DNA from: a virus
Virus record (IMG/VR): IMGVR_UViG_3300045988_004234
Span: 1 to 5,526 of that record
DNA length: 5,526 nt
Strand: one strand, 5' to 3'
Within the stretch, counting starts at the first letter, position 1. Every line of letters starts with the position of its first letter. Positions 2,643-5,093 of the stretch are shown in pieces. A program made the translations under genes and the position numbers. The notes under the pieces are model-generated. The model was given only the letters and a program-made list of their open reading frames with translations. It made no database searches and was not told the DNA's origin.

Positions 2643-2666
2643 TTTAATCCCTTCCTTTCTATGATT

Positions 2667-2695
2667 ATTTTATCATATTTTTTGAAAAAAGTCAA
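2667..2695 (-). promoter_or_regulatory. Sigma70-type promoter driving the minus-strand gene chain
   Basis: The minus strand reads TTGACT (2695-2690), a 17-nt spacer, then TAAAAT (2672-2667) preceded by TGA (TG-extended -10). An A/T-rich UP-like stretch lies upstream, and the promoter sits about 25 nt before the first RBS. Confidence 0.7.
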
Positions 2696-2708
2696 GGTTT
2701 TTTGAAAA
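2678..2708. repeat. Two copies of the 11-mer TTTTTTGAAAA bracketing the -35 hexamer (possible operator)
   Basis: Exact copies at 2678-2688 (inside the promoter spacer) and 2698-2708 (just upstream of -35), 20 bp apart centre to centre. Related TTGAAG copies lie at 2713-2718 and 2728-2733. Confidence 0.6.
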
Positions 2709-2733
2709 TAATTTGAAGAATTTTGTCTTGAAG

Positions 2734-2773
2734 GTCATGCGCTAGGCGCGGTGCGCCGTGCGAAGAGCATGAC
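2734..2773. other. GC-rich nested hairpin
   Basis: Outer stem GTCATGC (2734-2740) pairs with GCATGAC (2767-2773). Inner stem GGCGC (2745-2749) pairs with GCGCC (2753-2757) across a 3-nt loop. It forms a GC island in AT-rich surroundings. Confidence 0.6.
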
Positions 2774-2811
2774 GTAACTTTTCGGTTTCGCTCGTCGGAC
2801 TGCCTTTATTT

Positions 2812-2990
2812 GAGTTTTCAACACTTTCAACACTTTCAACAGGTTTTCCACAAAATGTTGCACAAAGACTTTTGTGCATATTGCTACACTTTCAACAATT
2901 CAACAAGTTTTCAACAAAGTTTTCAACAATGAGATTTGCTTATTTTTTACGTTGTTGCGTTACAAATTTATACTTTTCAACTTTTCAACA
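2812..2990 (+). repeat. Iteron array: 7 perfect and 2 one-mismatch copies of TTTCAACA, all in one orientation, in three clusters
   Basis: Perfect copies start at 2816, 2825, 2834 (9-bp tandem TTTCAACAC), 2890, 2909, 2921 (12-bp tandem AGTTTTCAACAA x2) and 2983. One-mismatch copies start at 2898 (ATTCAACA) and 2975 (TTTCAACT, part of the 8-bp tandem CTTTTCAA x2). Confidence 0.9.
2859..2878. other. Perfect 8-bp palindrome/hairpin between iteron clusters
   Basis: TGCACAAA (2859-2866), loop GACT, TTTGTGCA (2871-2878). Confidence 0.7.
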
Positions 2991-2994
2991 GCCC

Positions 2995-3016
2995 CTACTA
3001 CTACTACTACAACAAG
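2995..3016. repeat. Trinucleotide microsatellite (CTA)5 followed by (CAA)2
   Basis: ctactactactacta caacaa g read directly, immediately right of the last iteron. Confidence 0.9.
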
Positions 3017-3044
3017 TTATATATAATAGATTATGTTTGTAAAT

Positions 3045-3084
3045 ACACGTGCGTGCGTGCGCGTTTCGCGCGTGCGTGCGCGTG
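3045..3084. repeat. Two alternating purine-pyrimidine GC-rich tracts (Z-DNA-prone) forming an imperfect hairpin; contains a duplicated 14-mer
   Basis: 3045-3063 (acacgtgcgtgcgtgcgcg) and 3067-3084 (cgcgcgtgcgtgcgcgtg) alternate Pu/Py without a break and flank a TTT. GCGTGCGTGCGCGT occurs at 3051-3064 and 3070-3083. Folding 3046-3063 onto 3067-3084 gives 13 Watson-Crick plus 5 G-T pairs on the plus strand. Confidence 0.85.
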
Positions 3085-3107
3085 AGCGTAATTTAGCTTA
3101 TGATTTG

Positions 3108-3134
3108 CCTCGTACCTCGGTAGCCCCTACGAGG
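3108..3134. other. Hairpin, 7-bp stem
   Basis: CCTCGTA (3108-3114) pairs with TACGAGG (3128-3134) across a 13-nt loop. A competing CCCC (3124-3127) / GGGG (3133-3136) pairing is possible. Confidence 0.5.
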
Positions 3135-3145
3135 GGCGTATACGA

Positions 3146-3187
3146 AAGGGGTCTCCCGTGGCGACAGGAGACCCCTTCTTGTTTTTA
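3146..3187. terminator. Intrinsic-terminator-like hairpin, potentially bidirectional (the better U-tract is on the plus strand)
   Basis: Perfect 11-bp stem AAGGGGTCTCC (3146-3156) / GGAGACCCCTT (3167-3177) with a 10-nt loop. The plus strand continues CTTGTTTTTA. The minus strand continues only TCGTATACG, giving TTT when the last stem bases are counted. Confidence 0.6.
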
Positions 3188-3228
3188 TGATGCTCTTAAT
3201 TAGCCGTGGATAGCTGTGAAACTTGGGT

Positions 3229-3265
3229 GTGGGCCTAATCCTTATCTTGATAGGATTAGGCCCAC
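3229..3265. other. Perfect 14-bp hairpin with 9-nt loop, 5 nt downstream of the Rep stop codon
   Basis: GTGGGCCTAATCCT (3229-3242) pairs with AGGATTAGGCCCAC (3252-3265). The loop is TATCTTGAT. No U-tract follows on either strand, so it is not a canonical terminator. Confidence 0.85.
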
Positions 3266-3270
3266 TGACA

Positions 3271-4293
3271 CTATAACAGCCCTCTGGCTGTTCTAAACTT
3301 TTGCTGTTTTGTTGCTTCTTCCACCTTTGCCTCTTGTTCGATGGTTAGCCCTGTATTGCTCATTTTGAGCTTTAGCGCGTTGATTGCGCTTGATTGCCTT
3401 TTGCGTTTCGTTTCCCATAGGTCTTCCGGATGCTCACTTTCGTACTTTTTATCAAAGTACCTCGGTATCGGCCTTTTTTTGCCGTTAAAGTATAGTCCAT
3501 CATCTGCGTACATCTTCTCTTTGTGGCTCGTGTAGTAGTCGTAGCCTAAACCCGGATTCCTCGACATACAACAATAAGGCGGCGTTAAGCCTAGCTCCCT
3601 ATATCTTTTGTTGTCGTTTCCATATGTCTTTTTGGTGACGTATCCTGCCACATAAGCCATCGTTTCCGGTGACGCTTCTGCAATGATGACATTACCCATG
3701 CCCCAGATTTTGTCTATCTCTTCGCTTTCGAAGTACGGATTATCACCCCTTTTTTTCTTGAGGTCTGGAATTTCCAAACCATAATAAATGCCGTGGTGAT
3801 GCGGTCTGCCCGTGTTTTCGCCGTATTCGCCACAATAAAAATATCTTAGGTCTAAGCCCCATTTATCGGACGTTTCTTGCTTTTTGCGCAGTCTCTTGTT
3901 AAAGCGCACCATGTCTTCTTGTAGCAGTATTTGTACCACTTCCGGCGCGTCTCCGGTTGTCCACTGGTGTGTTGCACCTCTTATGATTTCGCCGGTTGCT
4001 CTTACCATGCCCGGCACGTACTCTTGATTCCAGGTCAGAGTTAAAAACCATACCGGTGACAGTGTTTTTGACTCCATCAGCATTCTTGTCTCCCAGTCTT
4101 GTCGCTGTCTGAGTCTGCATCCTAGACATTTGCCACATGGCAGTAACATCACGTCTGTCCTGTACGCGATACTCTCATACGTTGCTGTTGGATTGTGCGC
4201 TCTTTCGCGGTACGTCTCTAGGGTCATGATTGACCCTGTTATGTTATGGTCGTTTGGGTTGTATACCCTTATGAGTGGTCTTGCACAACTCAT
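3271..4293 (-). CDS. VP4: Replication initiation protein VP4 (HUH rolling-circle endonuclease, phiX174 A-like)
   Basis: The 340-aa track ORF carries CGKCLGC near the N-terminus, FLTLTW (motif 1), [11 protein letters not shown] (HUH motif) and [11 protein letters not shown] (Y-x-x-x-Y double-tyrosine catalytic motif). AGGAGG lies 9 nt upstream. There is an ATGA overlap with the VP2 stop. Confidence 0.93.
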
Positions 4294-4958: not shown

Positions 4959-5093
4959 TTATCCGCTTGAGCTTGTTGCTCCGCTGCCGGATGTGCCTTT
5001 GAGTGCGTTGAATATGCCTGTTCCGGCGTTTATGAGTGTGCTCACGCCGCCCAGTAATTTTGCGCCTGTTGCTAACGCTGCTAAAATTGACAT
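4959..5093 (-). CDS. 44-aa Gly/Ala-rich hydrophobic mini-ORF, in frame with VP2 across a TAA; candidate pilot-protein N-terminal transmembrane module
   Basis: Hand-translated codon by codon: MSILAALATGAKLLGGVSTLINAGTGIFNALKGTSGSGATSSSG, stop TAA 4961-4959. It resembles the glycine-zipper N-terminal TM segment of phiX174 H and many VP2 proteins. It fills the VP1-VP2 gap. Confidence 0.55.
   Translation of the reverse strand: MSILAALATGAKLLGGVSTLINAGTGIFNALKGTSGSGATSSSG

What the first reader, a model, noticed from the sequence alone, without database searches (positions are those of the whole stretch)
2812..2990. Dense one-orientation iteron array (TTTCAACA x9) in a virus family not known for iterons
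Seven perfect and two near-perfect copies of one 8-mer lie within 180 bp, all in the same orientation. They are organised as tandem 9-mers, tandem 12-mers and tandem 8-mers. A given 8-mer is expected roughly 0.1 times per strand in a sequence this size, and I did not spot copies elsewhere in the window. Such arrays typically titrate a sequence-specific DNA-binding protein. One precedent is Rep binding at the bind locus of pMV158-type rolling-circle plasmids, and CRESS-virus origins and transcription-factor arrays behave similarly. The phiX174-type origin model has no equivalent, so this could be a distinct origin or control module.
Basis: partly seen in the sequence, partly recalled or inferred. 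Interest (0 to 1): 0.7.

Follow-up and report, generated by a model that had tools for sequence, protein, structure and literature searches.

The report
Host-type DnaA origin module in microvirus
The repeated 8-mer is a cluster of binding sites for the bacterial replication initiator DnaA, and with neighbouring (TAG)5 repeats and an AT-rich tract it forms a copy of the unwinding unit of bacterial chromosome origins inside a small single-stranded-DNA gut phage, which suggests that the phage uses the host initiator to start replication.

Summary
TTTCAACA occurs 7 times exactly (0.18 expected), plus 3 near-copies, all on one strand at 2816-2990 and nowhere else in this 5447-nt circular gokushovirus genome.

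The array is an origin-type protein-binding module, but the repeats are not Rep iterons. As 9-mers they read TTTTCAACA/TTTTCCACA, which are DnaA boxes. The clostridial consensus TTATCNACA is established experimentally.

The array ends in box-box-GCCC-(CTA)5-AT-rich. This matches the bacterial basal unwinding system (BUS: DnaA boxes plus DnaA-trios) in order, polarity and spacing. A scan of bacterial genomes for this composite returned at least 120 hits (about 0.6 expected). Of these, 103 lie at dnaA/dnaN in one fixed geometry, with the same 4-nt spacer and 8-9-nt box offset as the phage.

The cassette is present in more than 100 gut gokushovirus genomes, in two clades whose Rep proteins are only about 45% identical. 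It is inverted as a unit in a third clade and absent from classical gokushoviruses. It is unannotated in all 47 GenBank records that hold it, and I found no literature on it.

Most likely function: host DnaA-ATP binds the boxes, oligomerises onto the trios and melts the adjacent AT-rich tract of the double-stranded replicative form. What follows the melting is unresolved.

The parts
2815..2852 (+). Distal DnaA-box cluster. TTTTCAACA (2815-2823), CTTTCAACA (2824-2832) and CTTTCAACA (2833-2841) abut at a 9-nt period. TTTTCCACA (2844-2852) is a perfect TTWTNCACA box.
   Evidence: In relatives, TGTGGAAAA and TGTTGAAAA interchange at these positions.
2856..2881 (.). Palindrome whose arms are box-like 9-mers in opposite orientation: TGTTGCACA on the + strand (2856-2864) and ATATGCACA on the - strand (2873-2881). 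It forms an 8-bp hairpin (2859-2878) when single-stranded.
   Evidence: terminator-like hit; box scan; dG -7.7, z -2.4. It is present in only some relatives.
2889..2928 (+). Middle DnaA-box cluster: CTTTCAACA (2889-2897), AATTCAACA (2897-2905, weaker), TTTTCAACA (2908-2916) and TTTTCAACA (2920-2928). Start-to-start periods are 8, 11 and 12 nt.
   Evidence: This four-box cluster is the most conserved part of the array across 104 unique phage modules.
2974..2990 (+). Trio-proximal box pair of the unwinding unit: TTTTCAACT (2974-2982) and TTTTCAACA (2982-2990), offset by 8 nt. They have 3 and 2 mismatches to TTATCCACA. The second has 0 mismatches to the clostridial-type TTWTCNACA.
   Evidence: The same 8-nt offset pair occurs in 50 of 120 chromosomal origins and 82 phage modules. 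In most relatives the proximal box is TGTGGAAAA.
2991..2994 (.). GC spacer (GCCC) between the proximal box and the first trio.
   Evidence: The spacer is exactly 4 nt in 114 of 120 bacterial origins and 88 of 91 phage modules. The literature gives the GC-rich region as 4 bp on average (PMC8287927).
2995..3009 (-). Five consensus DnaA-trios. They read 5'-TAG-3' x5 on the - (coding) strand, i.e. 3'-GAT-5', and (CTA)5 on the + strand.
   Evidence: (sequence). The three box-proximal trios are at least 90% conserved in both Rep clades. Consensus and polarity come from PMC8287927 and PMC8235120.
3010..3018 (-). Microvirus-specific invariant AACTTGTTG on the coding strand, directly 5' of the trios. 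It shares AACTTG with the phiX174 origin core CAACTTG^ATA.
   Evidence: It is at least 90% conserved in both Rep clades, whereas the equivalent bacterial flank is only AT-rich. It is absent from the dsDNA-phage modules. The phiX174 origin was verified. Its function is not established.
3017..3045 (.). Short AT-rich tract at the position of a DNA-unwinding element.
   Evidence: The least stable 24-mer of the whole genome is 3018-3041 (dG -21.7, against a genome mean of -32.2 with sd 3.1).
3046..3085 (.). Alternating purine-pyrimidine GC repeats (CGTGCGTGCGTGCGCGT x2) bounding the AT-rich tract. This element is optional in relatives.
   Evidence: It is not a stable hairpin in this genome.
3229..3265 (.). 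14-bp perfect hairpin just after the VP4 stop, with the conserved loop ATCAAGATA on the coding strand. It is a candidate Rep origin or complementary-strand origin. It is context for the cassette, not part of it.
   Evidence: I3; dG -16, z -7.7. The same loop sits on unrelated stems in other gokushoviruses, including ones without the cassette.
2667..2695 (-). Sigma-70-like promoter (TTGACT-17-TAAAAT with an extended TG) for the downstream small-ORF/VP3/VP1 operon. It is context for the cassette.
   Evidence: 10 of 12 matches. Equivalent ttgac..tataat elements occur in relatives.

Best explanation
The array is a cluster of binding sites (DnaA boxes, 5'-TTWTCNACA-3' on the window + strand) for the host replication initiator DnaA. 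Together with the adjoining 4-nt GC spacer, five consensus DnaA-trios and the AT-rich tract, it forms a chromosomal-type basal unwinding system (BUS) carried by the phage.

Proposed mechanism, acting on the double-stranded replicative form:
1. DnaA occupies the co-oriented boxes.
2. The trio-proximal box pair (2974-2990) directs ATP-DnaA to oligomerise onto the (TAG)5 strand.
3. The oligomer melts the adjacent AT-rich tract (3017-3045), which is the weakest duplex in the genome.
4. The upstream boxes raise local DnaA occupancy, as the distal boxes of B. subtilis incC do.

Shown here: sequence identity, order, polarity, spacing and conservation of every BUS element, and the chromosomal location of the same composite in bacteria.

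Inferred: DnaA binding itself, the unwinding, and what the opening is used for. The opening could load the host helicase to replicate the replicative form. It could instead expose single-stranded DNA for the HUH Rep protein VP4, or license replication according to the host's DnaA-ATP status.

The likely host is a gut member of the Clostridia whose origin uses the same A-at-position-6 box variant.
For: 1. Box identity. The 9-mers are TTTTCAACA, CTTTCAACA and TTTTCCACA. Eleven matches within 1 mismatch of TTWTCNACA/TTWTNCACA lie in 2815-2990, 10 of them co-oriented, against a maximum of 6 per 200 nt in 300 shuffles. In relatives TGTTGAAAA alternates with TGTGGAAAA, and in some with TGTGGATAA (= TTATCCACA), at homologous positions. 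T. tengcongensis (Clostridia) DnaA boxes have the consensus TTATCNACA, and its TTATCAACA-rich oriC is bound and unwound by its DnaA (PMC1888806; oligos).

2. BUS architecture. The order box pair, GCCC, (CTA)5, AT-rich tract matches the published order and polarity. The C. difficile trio 5'-CACCTACTACTATTACTACTATGA-3' resembles the window's GCCCCTACTACTACTACTAC.

3. Chromosomal counterpart. Scanning one genome per bacterial species for TAGTAGTAG-N2-8-TGTKGAWAA-N1-5-TKGAWAA gave at least 120 loci (about 0.6 expected) from many phyla. In 103 of 120 the site adjoins dnaN and/or dnaA in a single geometry (dnaN on the trio side, median 76 nt away; dnaA on the box side), with Pfam confirmation.

4. 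Quantitative match. The spacer is 4 nt in 114 of 120 bacterial and 88 of 91 phage modules. The box offset is 8-9 nt in bacteria and 8 nt in phage. The least stable 24-mer of the phage genome abuts the trios.

5. Independence from phage proteins. The cassette is in essentially all complete genomes of two clades with 44-47% identical VP4. No small ORF is cleanly co-inherited with it.

6. Cassette behaviour. The whole unit is inverted relative to the genes in KT264800, MG945867 and KT264801.

7. Host clue. The oriC of a Clostridia MAG (L234, next to dnaN) has (TAG)5-GGGC followed by nine co-oriented boxes, six of them TGTTGAAAA. It is the best-aligning bacterial origin.
Against: - No binding or unwinding was measured. 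Everything rests on sequence.
- The published BUS search rule is permissive and would fire by chance several times in 5 kb. The case rests on the much stricter composite and its chromosomal counterpart.
- Most phage boxes carry A at position 6 (304 T-type versus 152 G-type on the trio strand). This is the minority type in the bacterial sample (45 versus 367) and a mismatch to the E. coli consensus.
- Phage arrays are almost purely one-oriented (456 forward, 15 reverse). Bacterial origins are mixed (412 forward, 266 reverse).
- Some boxes abut at 8-9-nt periods, so not all can be occupied at once.
- The AT-rich tract is short (about 20-30 nt) and clamped by GC repeats. That may be too small for helicase loading.
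- A rolling-circle phage with its own Rep has no textbook need for DnaA. Classical gokushoviruses and several gut ones lack the cassette, so it is not essential to the family.
- KT264799 keeps only the trio-proximal part.
Confidence: 0.72

Rival explanations
1. DnaA binds the array, but the purpose is not origin opening. The cluster would act as a decoy that titrates host DnaA, like datA or the B. subtilis DnaA-box clusters. That would arrest host initiation or let DnaA regulate phage transcription.
For: About 11 boxes per genome, multiplied by many replicative-form copies, would be a large DnaA sink. The boxes lie upstream of the operon promoter at 2695-2667. Most are the probably weaker A-at-position-6 variant.
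Against: Titration does not need trios, an exact 4-nt GC spacer, an 8-nt-offset proximal pair or the least stable duplex of the genome next door. All of these are conserved in more than 100 genomes. In KT264800 the array is inverted and more than 300 nt from the promoter, which argues against positioned transcriptional control. KT264799 retains just the trio-proximal part and has lost the bulk of the array. This reading is not exclusive of the main explanation.
Confidence: 0.12
2. The repeats are iterons for the phage Rep protein (VP4), as in the bind locus of pMV158-type plasmids or CRESS-virus origins. They would position Rep next to its nick site.
For: The repeats are direct and lie in the only large non-coding region, close to the VP4 gene. 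A microvirus-specific invariant AACTTGTTG, resembling the phiX174 nick core, abuts the module.
Against: The motif is unchanged between clades with 44-47% identical VP4. It is the same as in bacterial chromosome origins and in dsDNA phages that have no VP4. It interchanges with canonical DnaA boxes. The units are 8-9 nt, not the 17-22 nt typical of iterons. Gokushoviruses with homologous VP4 lack the array.
Confidence: 0.06
3. The module acts on the incoming single-stranded genome as a complementary-strand origin. An example would be a DnaA-dependent primosome assembly site, with a DnaA box presented in a hairpin, like the R6K A site (from my own knowledge of the ABC primosome).
For: A palindrome with box-like arms exists inside the array (2856-2881). 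In some relatives TGTGGAAAA and TTTTCCACA can pair. A microvirus must prime complementary-strand synthesis somewhere.
Against: Ten of 11 boxes are co-oriented and cannot pair with each other. The palindrome is not conserved across relatives. The cassette is inverted relative to the genes in three records, which would put the other strand in the virion if the coding strand is always packaged. The BUS geometry is a duplex-DNA feature.
Confidence: 0.05
4. A phage-encoded small protein reads the array, for example the 47-aa ORF at 2266-2123 or the VP5-like 80-aa 'DNA binding protein'.
For: The 47-aa ORF has tblastn hits in 82 of 94 cassette-bearing genomes. By eye, KT264800 has a weak look-alike (ELLDKIYHLIDK against the window ORF's LEKLDAIYHALRDK), but this similarity was not tested statistically. 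The 80-aa ORF matches phrog_1670, 'DNA binding protein'.
Against: Distribution is incomplete: 11 close relatives have no hit to the 47-aa ORF, and the VP5-like ORF also occurs in cassette-less genomes. Neither explains the identity with DnaA boxes, trios and chromosomal geometry. The other small ORFs next to the array differ between relatives.
Confidence: 0.04
5. The array is slippage-generated low-complexity DNA with no function.
For: Copy number and spacing vary between relatives.
Against: The motif, its orientation and the flanking trio-spacer-box geometry are conserved across more than 100 genomes from different hosts and continents.
Confidence: 0.01

Closest known systems
[quoted passage not shown]
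   Same: It has the same elements in the same order and polarity. It has the same 4-nt GC spacer and the same 8-9-nt offset of the two proximal boxes. The consensus 3'-GAT-5' trios number 5, where at least 3 are required. The weakest duplex lies on the far side of the trios, and further co-oriented boxes lie upstream.
   Different: It sits in a 5.4-kb single-stranded-DNA phage that encodes its own HUH Rep, not between dnaA and dnaN. Its boxes are mostly the A-at-position-6 variant and almost all one-oriented. The AT-rich tract is short and GC-clamped, and a phage-specific invariant AACTTGTTG abuts the trios. The unit occurs in either orientation relative to the phage genes.
Thermoanaerobacter tengcongensis oriC (clostridial DnaA boxes TTATCNACA)
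   Same: The box variant with A at position 6 (TTATCAACA) is experimentally bound by DnaA and supports ATP-DnaA-dependent unwinding of a nearby AT-rich region (PMC1888806).
   Different: The phage boxes have T at position 3 (TTTTCAACA). The Tt-oriC arrangement differs, with 12 boxes in two groups and an AT cluster 25 bp from box 8.
Plasmid/phage origins that combine their own initiator with DnaA boxes (e.g. P1 oriR, pSC101, R6K, RK2; from my own knowledge)
   Same: A mobile replicon recruits host DnaA through boxes near its origin while also encoding its own initiator.
   Different: Those are theta replicons whose own Rep binds 17-22-bp iterons and does the opening, with one to a few DnaA boxes as helpers. 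Here there are no Rep iterons, the initiator is a rolling-circle nickase, and the DnaA part is a complete trio-containing unwinding unit.
phiX174 viral-strand origin (30-nt CAACTTG^ATATTAATAAC... inside gene A)
   Same: It belongs to the same virus family and has an HUH Rep. AACTTG next to the trios, and ACTTGAT/CTTGATA on the complement of the hairpin loop after VP4, resemble the phiX174 nick core.
   Different: The phiX174 origin has no DnaA boxes, trios or repeats and lies within a coding region. The resemblances here are 6-10 nt and their strand assignment is unresolved.
pMV158 bind locus / CRESS-virus iterons
   Same: These are direct repeats in the origin region of a rolling-circle replicon.
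   Different: Those repeats are read by the replicon's own Rep and co-vary with it. Here the motif is invariant across divergent Rep proteins and identical to host DnaA boxes.

Membership tests
Basal unwinding system (BUS) of bacterial oriC | A DnaA box with at most 2 mismatches to TTATCCACA lies within 0-16 bp of the trios. | tested here: met
   TTTTCAACA (2982-2990) has 2 mismatches and lies 4 bp from the first trio. In most relatives this box is TTTTCCACA, with 1 mismatch.
Basal unwinding system (BUS) of bacterial oriC | A second, co-oriented box with at most 4 mismatches lies adjacent to the first. | tested here: met
   TTTTCAACT (2974-2982) has 3 mismatches and is offset by 8 nt. The same offset occurs in 50 of 120 chromosomal examples.
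Basal unwinding system (BUS) of bacterial oriC | At least 3 DnaA-trios (NAN, consensus 3'-GAT-5') lie on the strand that runs 5'-trios-boxes-3'. | tested here: met
   Five exact TAG repeats lie on the - strand at 2995-3009. The polarity matches '5'-tail encoding DnaA-trios' and the box, GC-rich, 5'-CTA-3' order.
Basal unwinding system (BUS) of bacterial oriC | A GC-rich spacer of about 4 bp separates the proximal box from the trios. | tested here: met
   The spacer is GCCC (2991-2994). A 4-nt spacer occurs in 114 of 120 bacterial and 88 of 91 phage modules.
Basal unwinding system (BUS) of bacterial oriC | An AT-rich unwinding element lies distal to the trios. | tested here: met
   The least stable 24-mer of the genome is 3018-3041. 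The tract is shorter than in bacteria.
Basal unwinding system (BUS) of bacterial oriC | It is located in a chromosomal origin, typically dnaA-dnaN. | tested here: not met
   It lies in a phage genome between VP4 and a small-ORF operon. It is therefore a BUS-type module, not a chromosomal oriC.
Basal unwinding system (BUS) of bacterial oriC | DnaA binding and ATP-DnaA-dependent strand separation that require the boxes and trios. | not testable with these tools
   This needs EMSA or footprinting and P1/KMnO4 or BHQ strand-separation assays.
Rep-binding iterons (theta plasmids; pMV158 bind locus; CRESS/geminivirus iterons) | The repeat sequence is specific to, and co-varies with, the replicon's own Rep. 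| tested here: not met
   The same motif occurs in clades with 44-47% identical VP4, in dsDNA phages and in bacterial oriC.
Rep-binding iterons (theta plasmids; pMV158 bind locus; CRESS/geminivirus iterons) | The repeats are physically bound by the Rep protein. | not testable with these tools
   This needs EMSA with VP4.
Spo0A-box arrays (0A box TGTCGAA, as used by phi29; from my own knowledge) | The core TGNCGAA is present. | tested here: not met
   TGTCGAA occurs 0 times in 104 phage modules, against 686 TGTTGAA and 145 TGTGGAA.
Described RNA families / tRNA | A match to an Rfam model at its gathering score, or a tRNA. | tested here: not met
   The only hit is a sub-threshold LhrA match (20.6 bits against a gathering score of 100) at 3143-3306, and there is no tRNA.

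The most novel reading that the evidence does not exclude
These gut gokushoviruses are dual-origin replicons. Besides the Rep-dependent rolling-circle origin (probably the conserved ATCAAG-loop hairpin), they carry a complete DnaA-dependent, chromosome-type origin acquired from, or modelled on, the oriC of their clostridial hosts. This origin would let the double-stranded replicative form fire like a mini-chromosome, with theta-mode, DnaA-ATP-gated, plasmid-like carriage. Alternatively, it would make Rep nicking conditional on host initiation potential. Its box dialect (TTTTCAACA) would then be a readable host-range signature for otherwise host-less gut microviruses.
Probability: 0.3. Interest if true: 0.9.

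Novelty: new variant of a known kind. Interest (0 to 1): 0.8.

Why it matters
- Microviridae are the textbook example of Rep-driven rolling-circle replication, with no role for the host initiator. A complete DnaA-box/DnaA-trio unwinding unit conserved in more than 100 gut gokushovirus genomes would mean that a large, abundant clade of human and animal gut phages has wired host DnaA into its replication.
- As far as I could find, this would also be the first description of this unit in single-stranded-DNA phages. The scan also picked up a few dsDNA-phage contigs with similar modules.
- It gives a directly testable handle on how these uncultured phages start replication.
- It offers a possible link between phage replication and host growth state or persistence.
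- It offers a new kind of host-prediction signal, the match between phage and host DnaA-box dialect and origin layout. Gut gokushoviruses largely lack known hosts.
- For replication biologists it provides a compact, naturally minimised, orientation-independent BUS of about 230 bp on which to test the rules of DnaA loading.

Tried and rejected
- Rfam at permissive E-value and tRNA scan of the whole window gave only a sub-threshold LhrA hit at 3143-3306. Rejected.
- A coding explanation for the array fails. Only short unconserved ORFs overlap it, and relatives differ by copy-number changes.
- Spo0A 0A-boxes: 0 occurrences of TGTCGAA.
- -35-like TTGAAA promoter repeats: there is no consistent -10 partner. 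The only good promoter-like site is at 2695-2667.
- Rep iterons: there is no co-variation with VP4.
- A positioned transcription-factor array for the downstream promoter is contradicted by the inverted cassette in KT264800.
- A phage-encoded reader: no ORF is cleanly co-inherited with the cassette.
- Direct capture from the L234-type oriC: L234 is the best of 119 bacterial origins, but only about 3 sd above the mean. Acidobacterial origins score nearly as well, so the alignment is dominated by shared box arrays. Not shown.
- DNA similarity to plasmids: none.
- AACTTGTTG as the Rep nick site remains possible. It is weakened by the cassette inversion and by a better-distributed candidate, the ATCAAG-loop hairpin.
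- The original DnaA-trio paper (PMC4913881) was not held in the library. Polarity was taken from three other papers and from the bacterial survey.
- My first automated BUS detector missed 29 of 70 Rep-selected genomes because their proximal box was TGTTGAAAT-type. Inspection showed that the module is present in all but partial or broken contigs.
Full report
**1. The observation**

The window is a complete circular gokushovirus genome of 5447 nt with a 79-nt terminal redundancy. All genes are on the - strand:
- VP1: 1326 through the junction to 5137.
- VP2, the pilot protein: 4928-4290.
- VP4, the Rep protein: 4293-3271.
- Several small ORFs.
- VP3.

The finding lies in the only large non-coding region (2643-3270). 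TTTCAACA occurs 7 times exactly, all on the + strand between 2816 and 2990. The expected count is 0.18, and no shuffle out of 200 reached 7. Three one-mismatch copies lie in the same stretch.

**2. Conservation**

Eight GenBank relatives at 80-84% identity come from pig, dog and human faeces. Seven of them carry the motif downstream of VP4, always as TGTTGAAA on the coding strand, with 1-8 copies. The eighth is a partial record that ends before the region.

**3. What the alignment revealed**

Reading the non-coding regions side by side showed two things.

First, TGTTGAAAA alternates at homologous positions with TGTGGAAAA. The complement of TGTGGAAAA, TTTTCCACA, is a perfect DnaA box (TTWTNCACA). 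Some genomes have TGTGGATAA at these positions, which is exactly TTATCCACA.

On the + strand it reads TTTTCAACT-TTTTCAACA (2974-2990), GCCC (2991-2994), (CTA)5 (2995-3009), CAACAAGTT, and then an AT-rich tract. (CTA)n is the complement of 3'-GAT-5', the consensus DnaA-trio.

The literature defines the bacterial basal unwinding system (BUS) as follows:
- One or two co-oriented DnaA boxes, with at most 2 and at most 4 mismatches.
- A spacer of at most 16 bp that includes a GC-rich element of about 4 bp.
- At least 3 NAN trios.
- An AT-rich unwinding element.

The order is box, GC-rich, 5'-CTA-3', DUE, with the trios on a 5' tail relative to the boxes (PMC8287927, PMC8235120, PMC7561715, PMC10721633). 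The window meets each sequence criterion.

**4. The chromosomal counterpart**

The published rule is permissive, so I searched for the strict composite directly: TAGTAGTAG-N2-8-TGTKGAWAA-N1-5-TKGAWAA. The search covered one genome for each of 185,579 bacterial species. About 0.6 chance hits were expected. The hits came from Clostridia, Streptococcus, cyanobacteria, Chloroflexota, Acidobacteriota, Poribacteria, candidate phyla radiation (CPR) lineages, Nocardiopsis and others.

With the trio strand oriented as +, 103 of 120 loci had dnaN and/or dnaA alongside. dnaN started directly on the trio side in 85 loci, at a median of 76 nt. dnaA lay directly on the box side in 71. Examples were confirmed by Pfam. 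This is the classical dnaA, boxes, trios, DUE, dnaN layout.

The fine structure matches the phage:
- The distance from the TAG run to the proximal box is exactly 4 nt in 114 of 120 bacterial origins and in 88 of 91 phage modules.
- The start-to-start offset of the two proximal boxes is 8 or 9 nt in bacteria and 8 nt in phage.
- In the window, the least stable 24-mer of the whole genome (3018-3041) directly flanks the trios.

The A-for-C change at box position 6 looked at first like a weakness. It is in fact the experimentally established dialect of a member of the Clostridia. T. tengcongensis DnaA boxes have the consensus TTATCNACA, and its TTATCAACA-rich oriC is bound and unwound by ATP-DnaA. 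TGTTGATAA also sits among TGTGGATAA boxes in many of the chromosomal hits.

**5. Distribution among phages**

A pattern scan of IMG/VR returned more than 119 loci. About two-thirds were 5.3-6.1-kb microvirus contigs with the same cassette.

A Rep-based sample that did not depend on the pattern gave 70 loci. It showed the cassette in essentially every complete genome of two clades whose VP4 proteins are 82-98% and 44-47% identical to the window's.

Across 104 unique modules:
- TGTTGAWAA occurs 304 times and TGTGGAWAA 152 times in the forward orientation.
- Only 15 boxes are reversed.

The trios nearest the boxes, the spacer and the proximal pair are at least 90% conserved in both clades.

In KT264800, and by strand of match in MG945867 and KT264801, the entire cassette is inverted relative to the genes.

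Chp2, phiMH2K, SpV4 and three other gut microviruses have no such module.

Forty-seven GenBank phage records hold the cassette, all Microviridae apart from one unannotated 13-kb 'Bacteriophage sp.' record with a short partial match. In all of them it is unannotated or labelled 'hypothetical protein'. No plasmid matches it.

Full-text searches found no paper linking Microviridae or gokushoviruses with DnaA boxes or trios. That library omits most subscription journals.

**6. Rivals**

- Rep iterons fail the co-variation test.
- Spo0A boxes are absent.
- No phage ORF is cleanly co-inherited with the cassette. The 47-aa ORF comes closest, at 82 of 94 genomes.
- A positioned transcription-factor role, or a role on the packaged single strand, fits poorly with the inversion of the cassette and with the co-orientation of the boxes.
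- DnaA titration cannot be excluded as an added effect. It does not explain the conserved trios, spacer and weak duplex.

**7. Mechanism**

The best-supported reading is that host DnaA binds the boxes on the double-stranded replicative form. The proximal pair then loads ATP-DnaA onto the (TAG)5 strand, and the short AT-rich tract melts. Binding and melting are inferred.

What the opening serves is open. There are three candidates:
- Loading of the host helicase, giving theta-type amplification or plasmid-like carriage of the replicative form.
- Access for VP4, which as an HUH enzyme needs single-stranded DNA.
- Coupling of phage replication to host DnaA-ATP levels.

Two phage-specific features bear on this question.

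The first is an invariant AACTTGTTG that abuts the trios. It is conserved in phages but not in bacteria and shares AACTTG with the phiX174 nick core.

The second is a hairpin just after VP4 whose loop, ATCAAG(T/A)N, is conserved on completely different stems. It is found even in gokushoviruses without the cassette. In KT264800 the loop complement is CAACTTGATA, identical to the phiX174 core.

The hairpin is the better candidate for the family-wide Rep origin. That would make the DnaA cassette an accessory module. The strand on which these motifs lie is not what the phiX174 model predicts, and this remains unexplained.

**8. Host**

Among the sampled chromosomes, a Clostridia MAG (L234) has (TAG)5-GGGC followed by nine co-oriented boxes, six of them TGTTGAAAA, and no reversed box. 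It is the best-aligning origin. It is only about 3 sd above the mean, so direct capture is not shown. Other origins that use the T-type box belong to Roseburia, Lachnospiraceae, Acutalibacteraceae and other gut Clostridia. A clostridial host is a reasonable inference, not a result.

**9. Verdict**

The finding is real and more interesting than proposed. It is one half of a chromosomal-type DnaA unwinding module embedded in a rolling-circle single-stranded-DNA phage. The module is widespread in gut gokushoviruses and apparently undescribed. It is a new variant of a known kind of element. All functional steps still need experiments.

Noticed in passing
window 3229-3265 (also L319 3530-3561, L321 ~5007, L322 ~1785, L009 ~3229): A perfect 14-bp hairpin lies just after the VP4 stop (dG -16, z -7.7). 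Its loop, ATCAAG(T/A)N, is conserved on completely different stems across gokushoviruses, including ones without the DnaA cassette. The loop complement is ACTTGAT (CAACTTGATA in KT264800), which equals the phiX174 nick core, but it lies on the non-coding strand. It is a candidate family-wide Rep origin or complementary-strand origin.
   Followed up: partly
window 3010-3018 (- strand AACTTGTTG): This 9-mer is at least 90% invariant immediately 5' of the trios in both Rep clades. It is absent from bacterial and dsDNA-phage versions of the module. It moves with the cassette when the cassette is inverted (KT264800). No explanation so far accounts for its conservation.
   Followed up: partly
window 3046-3085: Two copies of an alternating purine-pyrimidine GC repeat (CGTGCGTGCGTGCGCGT) clamp the AT-rich tract. 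By composition they could form Z-DNA. In MG945391 the equivalent is a long perfect palindrome. The element is present in some relatives and absent in others.
   Followed up: no
window ~3086-3228: This stretch lies within an optional ~190-nt insert that also carries the GC repeats at 3046-3085. It holds two GC-rich hairpins (3122-3140; 3146-3177, dG -14.4, z -5.5). The insert is present in the window, MT135258, MG945136, MG945391 and MG945199. It is absent in MG945135, MG945157, KT264798 and KT264799. The stems differ in sequence between relatives but still pair.
   Followed up: partly
window 2734-2773: An imperfect hairpin (GTCATGC...GGCGC ACC GCGCC...GCATGAC; z -3.0) lies between the array and the promoter. 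It is highly conserved in seven relatives and lost in KT264799. Its function is unknown.
   Followed up: partly
window 4959-4961 (- strand): VP2 (the pilot protein) is interrupted by an in-frame TAA where relatives have TAC (Tyr). This splits it into a 44-aa ORF and a 212-aa ORF. It could be a sequencing error, a defective genome or readthrough.
   Followed up: partly
L119 (140-kb contig), L093/L121, L046, L099: Contigs that are not microviruses carry the same trio-spacer-box unit with further DnaA boxes. L119 encodes gyrase-like topoisomerase subunits and an RNA ligase. L093 encodes a chaperonin-family protein and a PD-(D/E)XK nuclease. L046 and L099 were not annotated. BUS-type modules may therefore be used by other phages too.
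   Followed up: partly
window 2266-2123 (- strand, 47 aa): This small helical ORF has tblastn hits in 82 of 94 cassette-bearing genomes of both Rep clades. By eye, KT264800 has a weak look-alike. It matches no known family.
   Followed up: partly
L234 (CAMHLN010000058.1) ~1940-2240: The chromosomal oriC of an uncultured Clostridia MAG uses mostly TGTTGAAAA boxes, all co-oriented (9 forward, 0 reverse). This origin layout is unusual compared with the other 119 sampled origins and is the closest to the phage array.
   Followed up: partly
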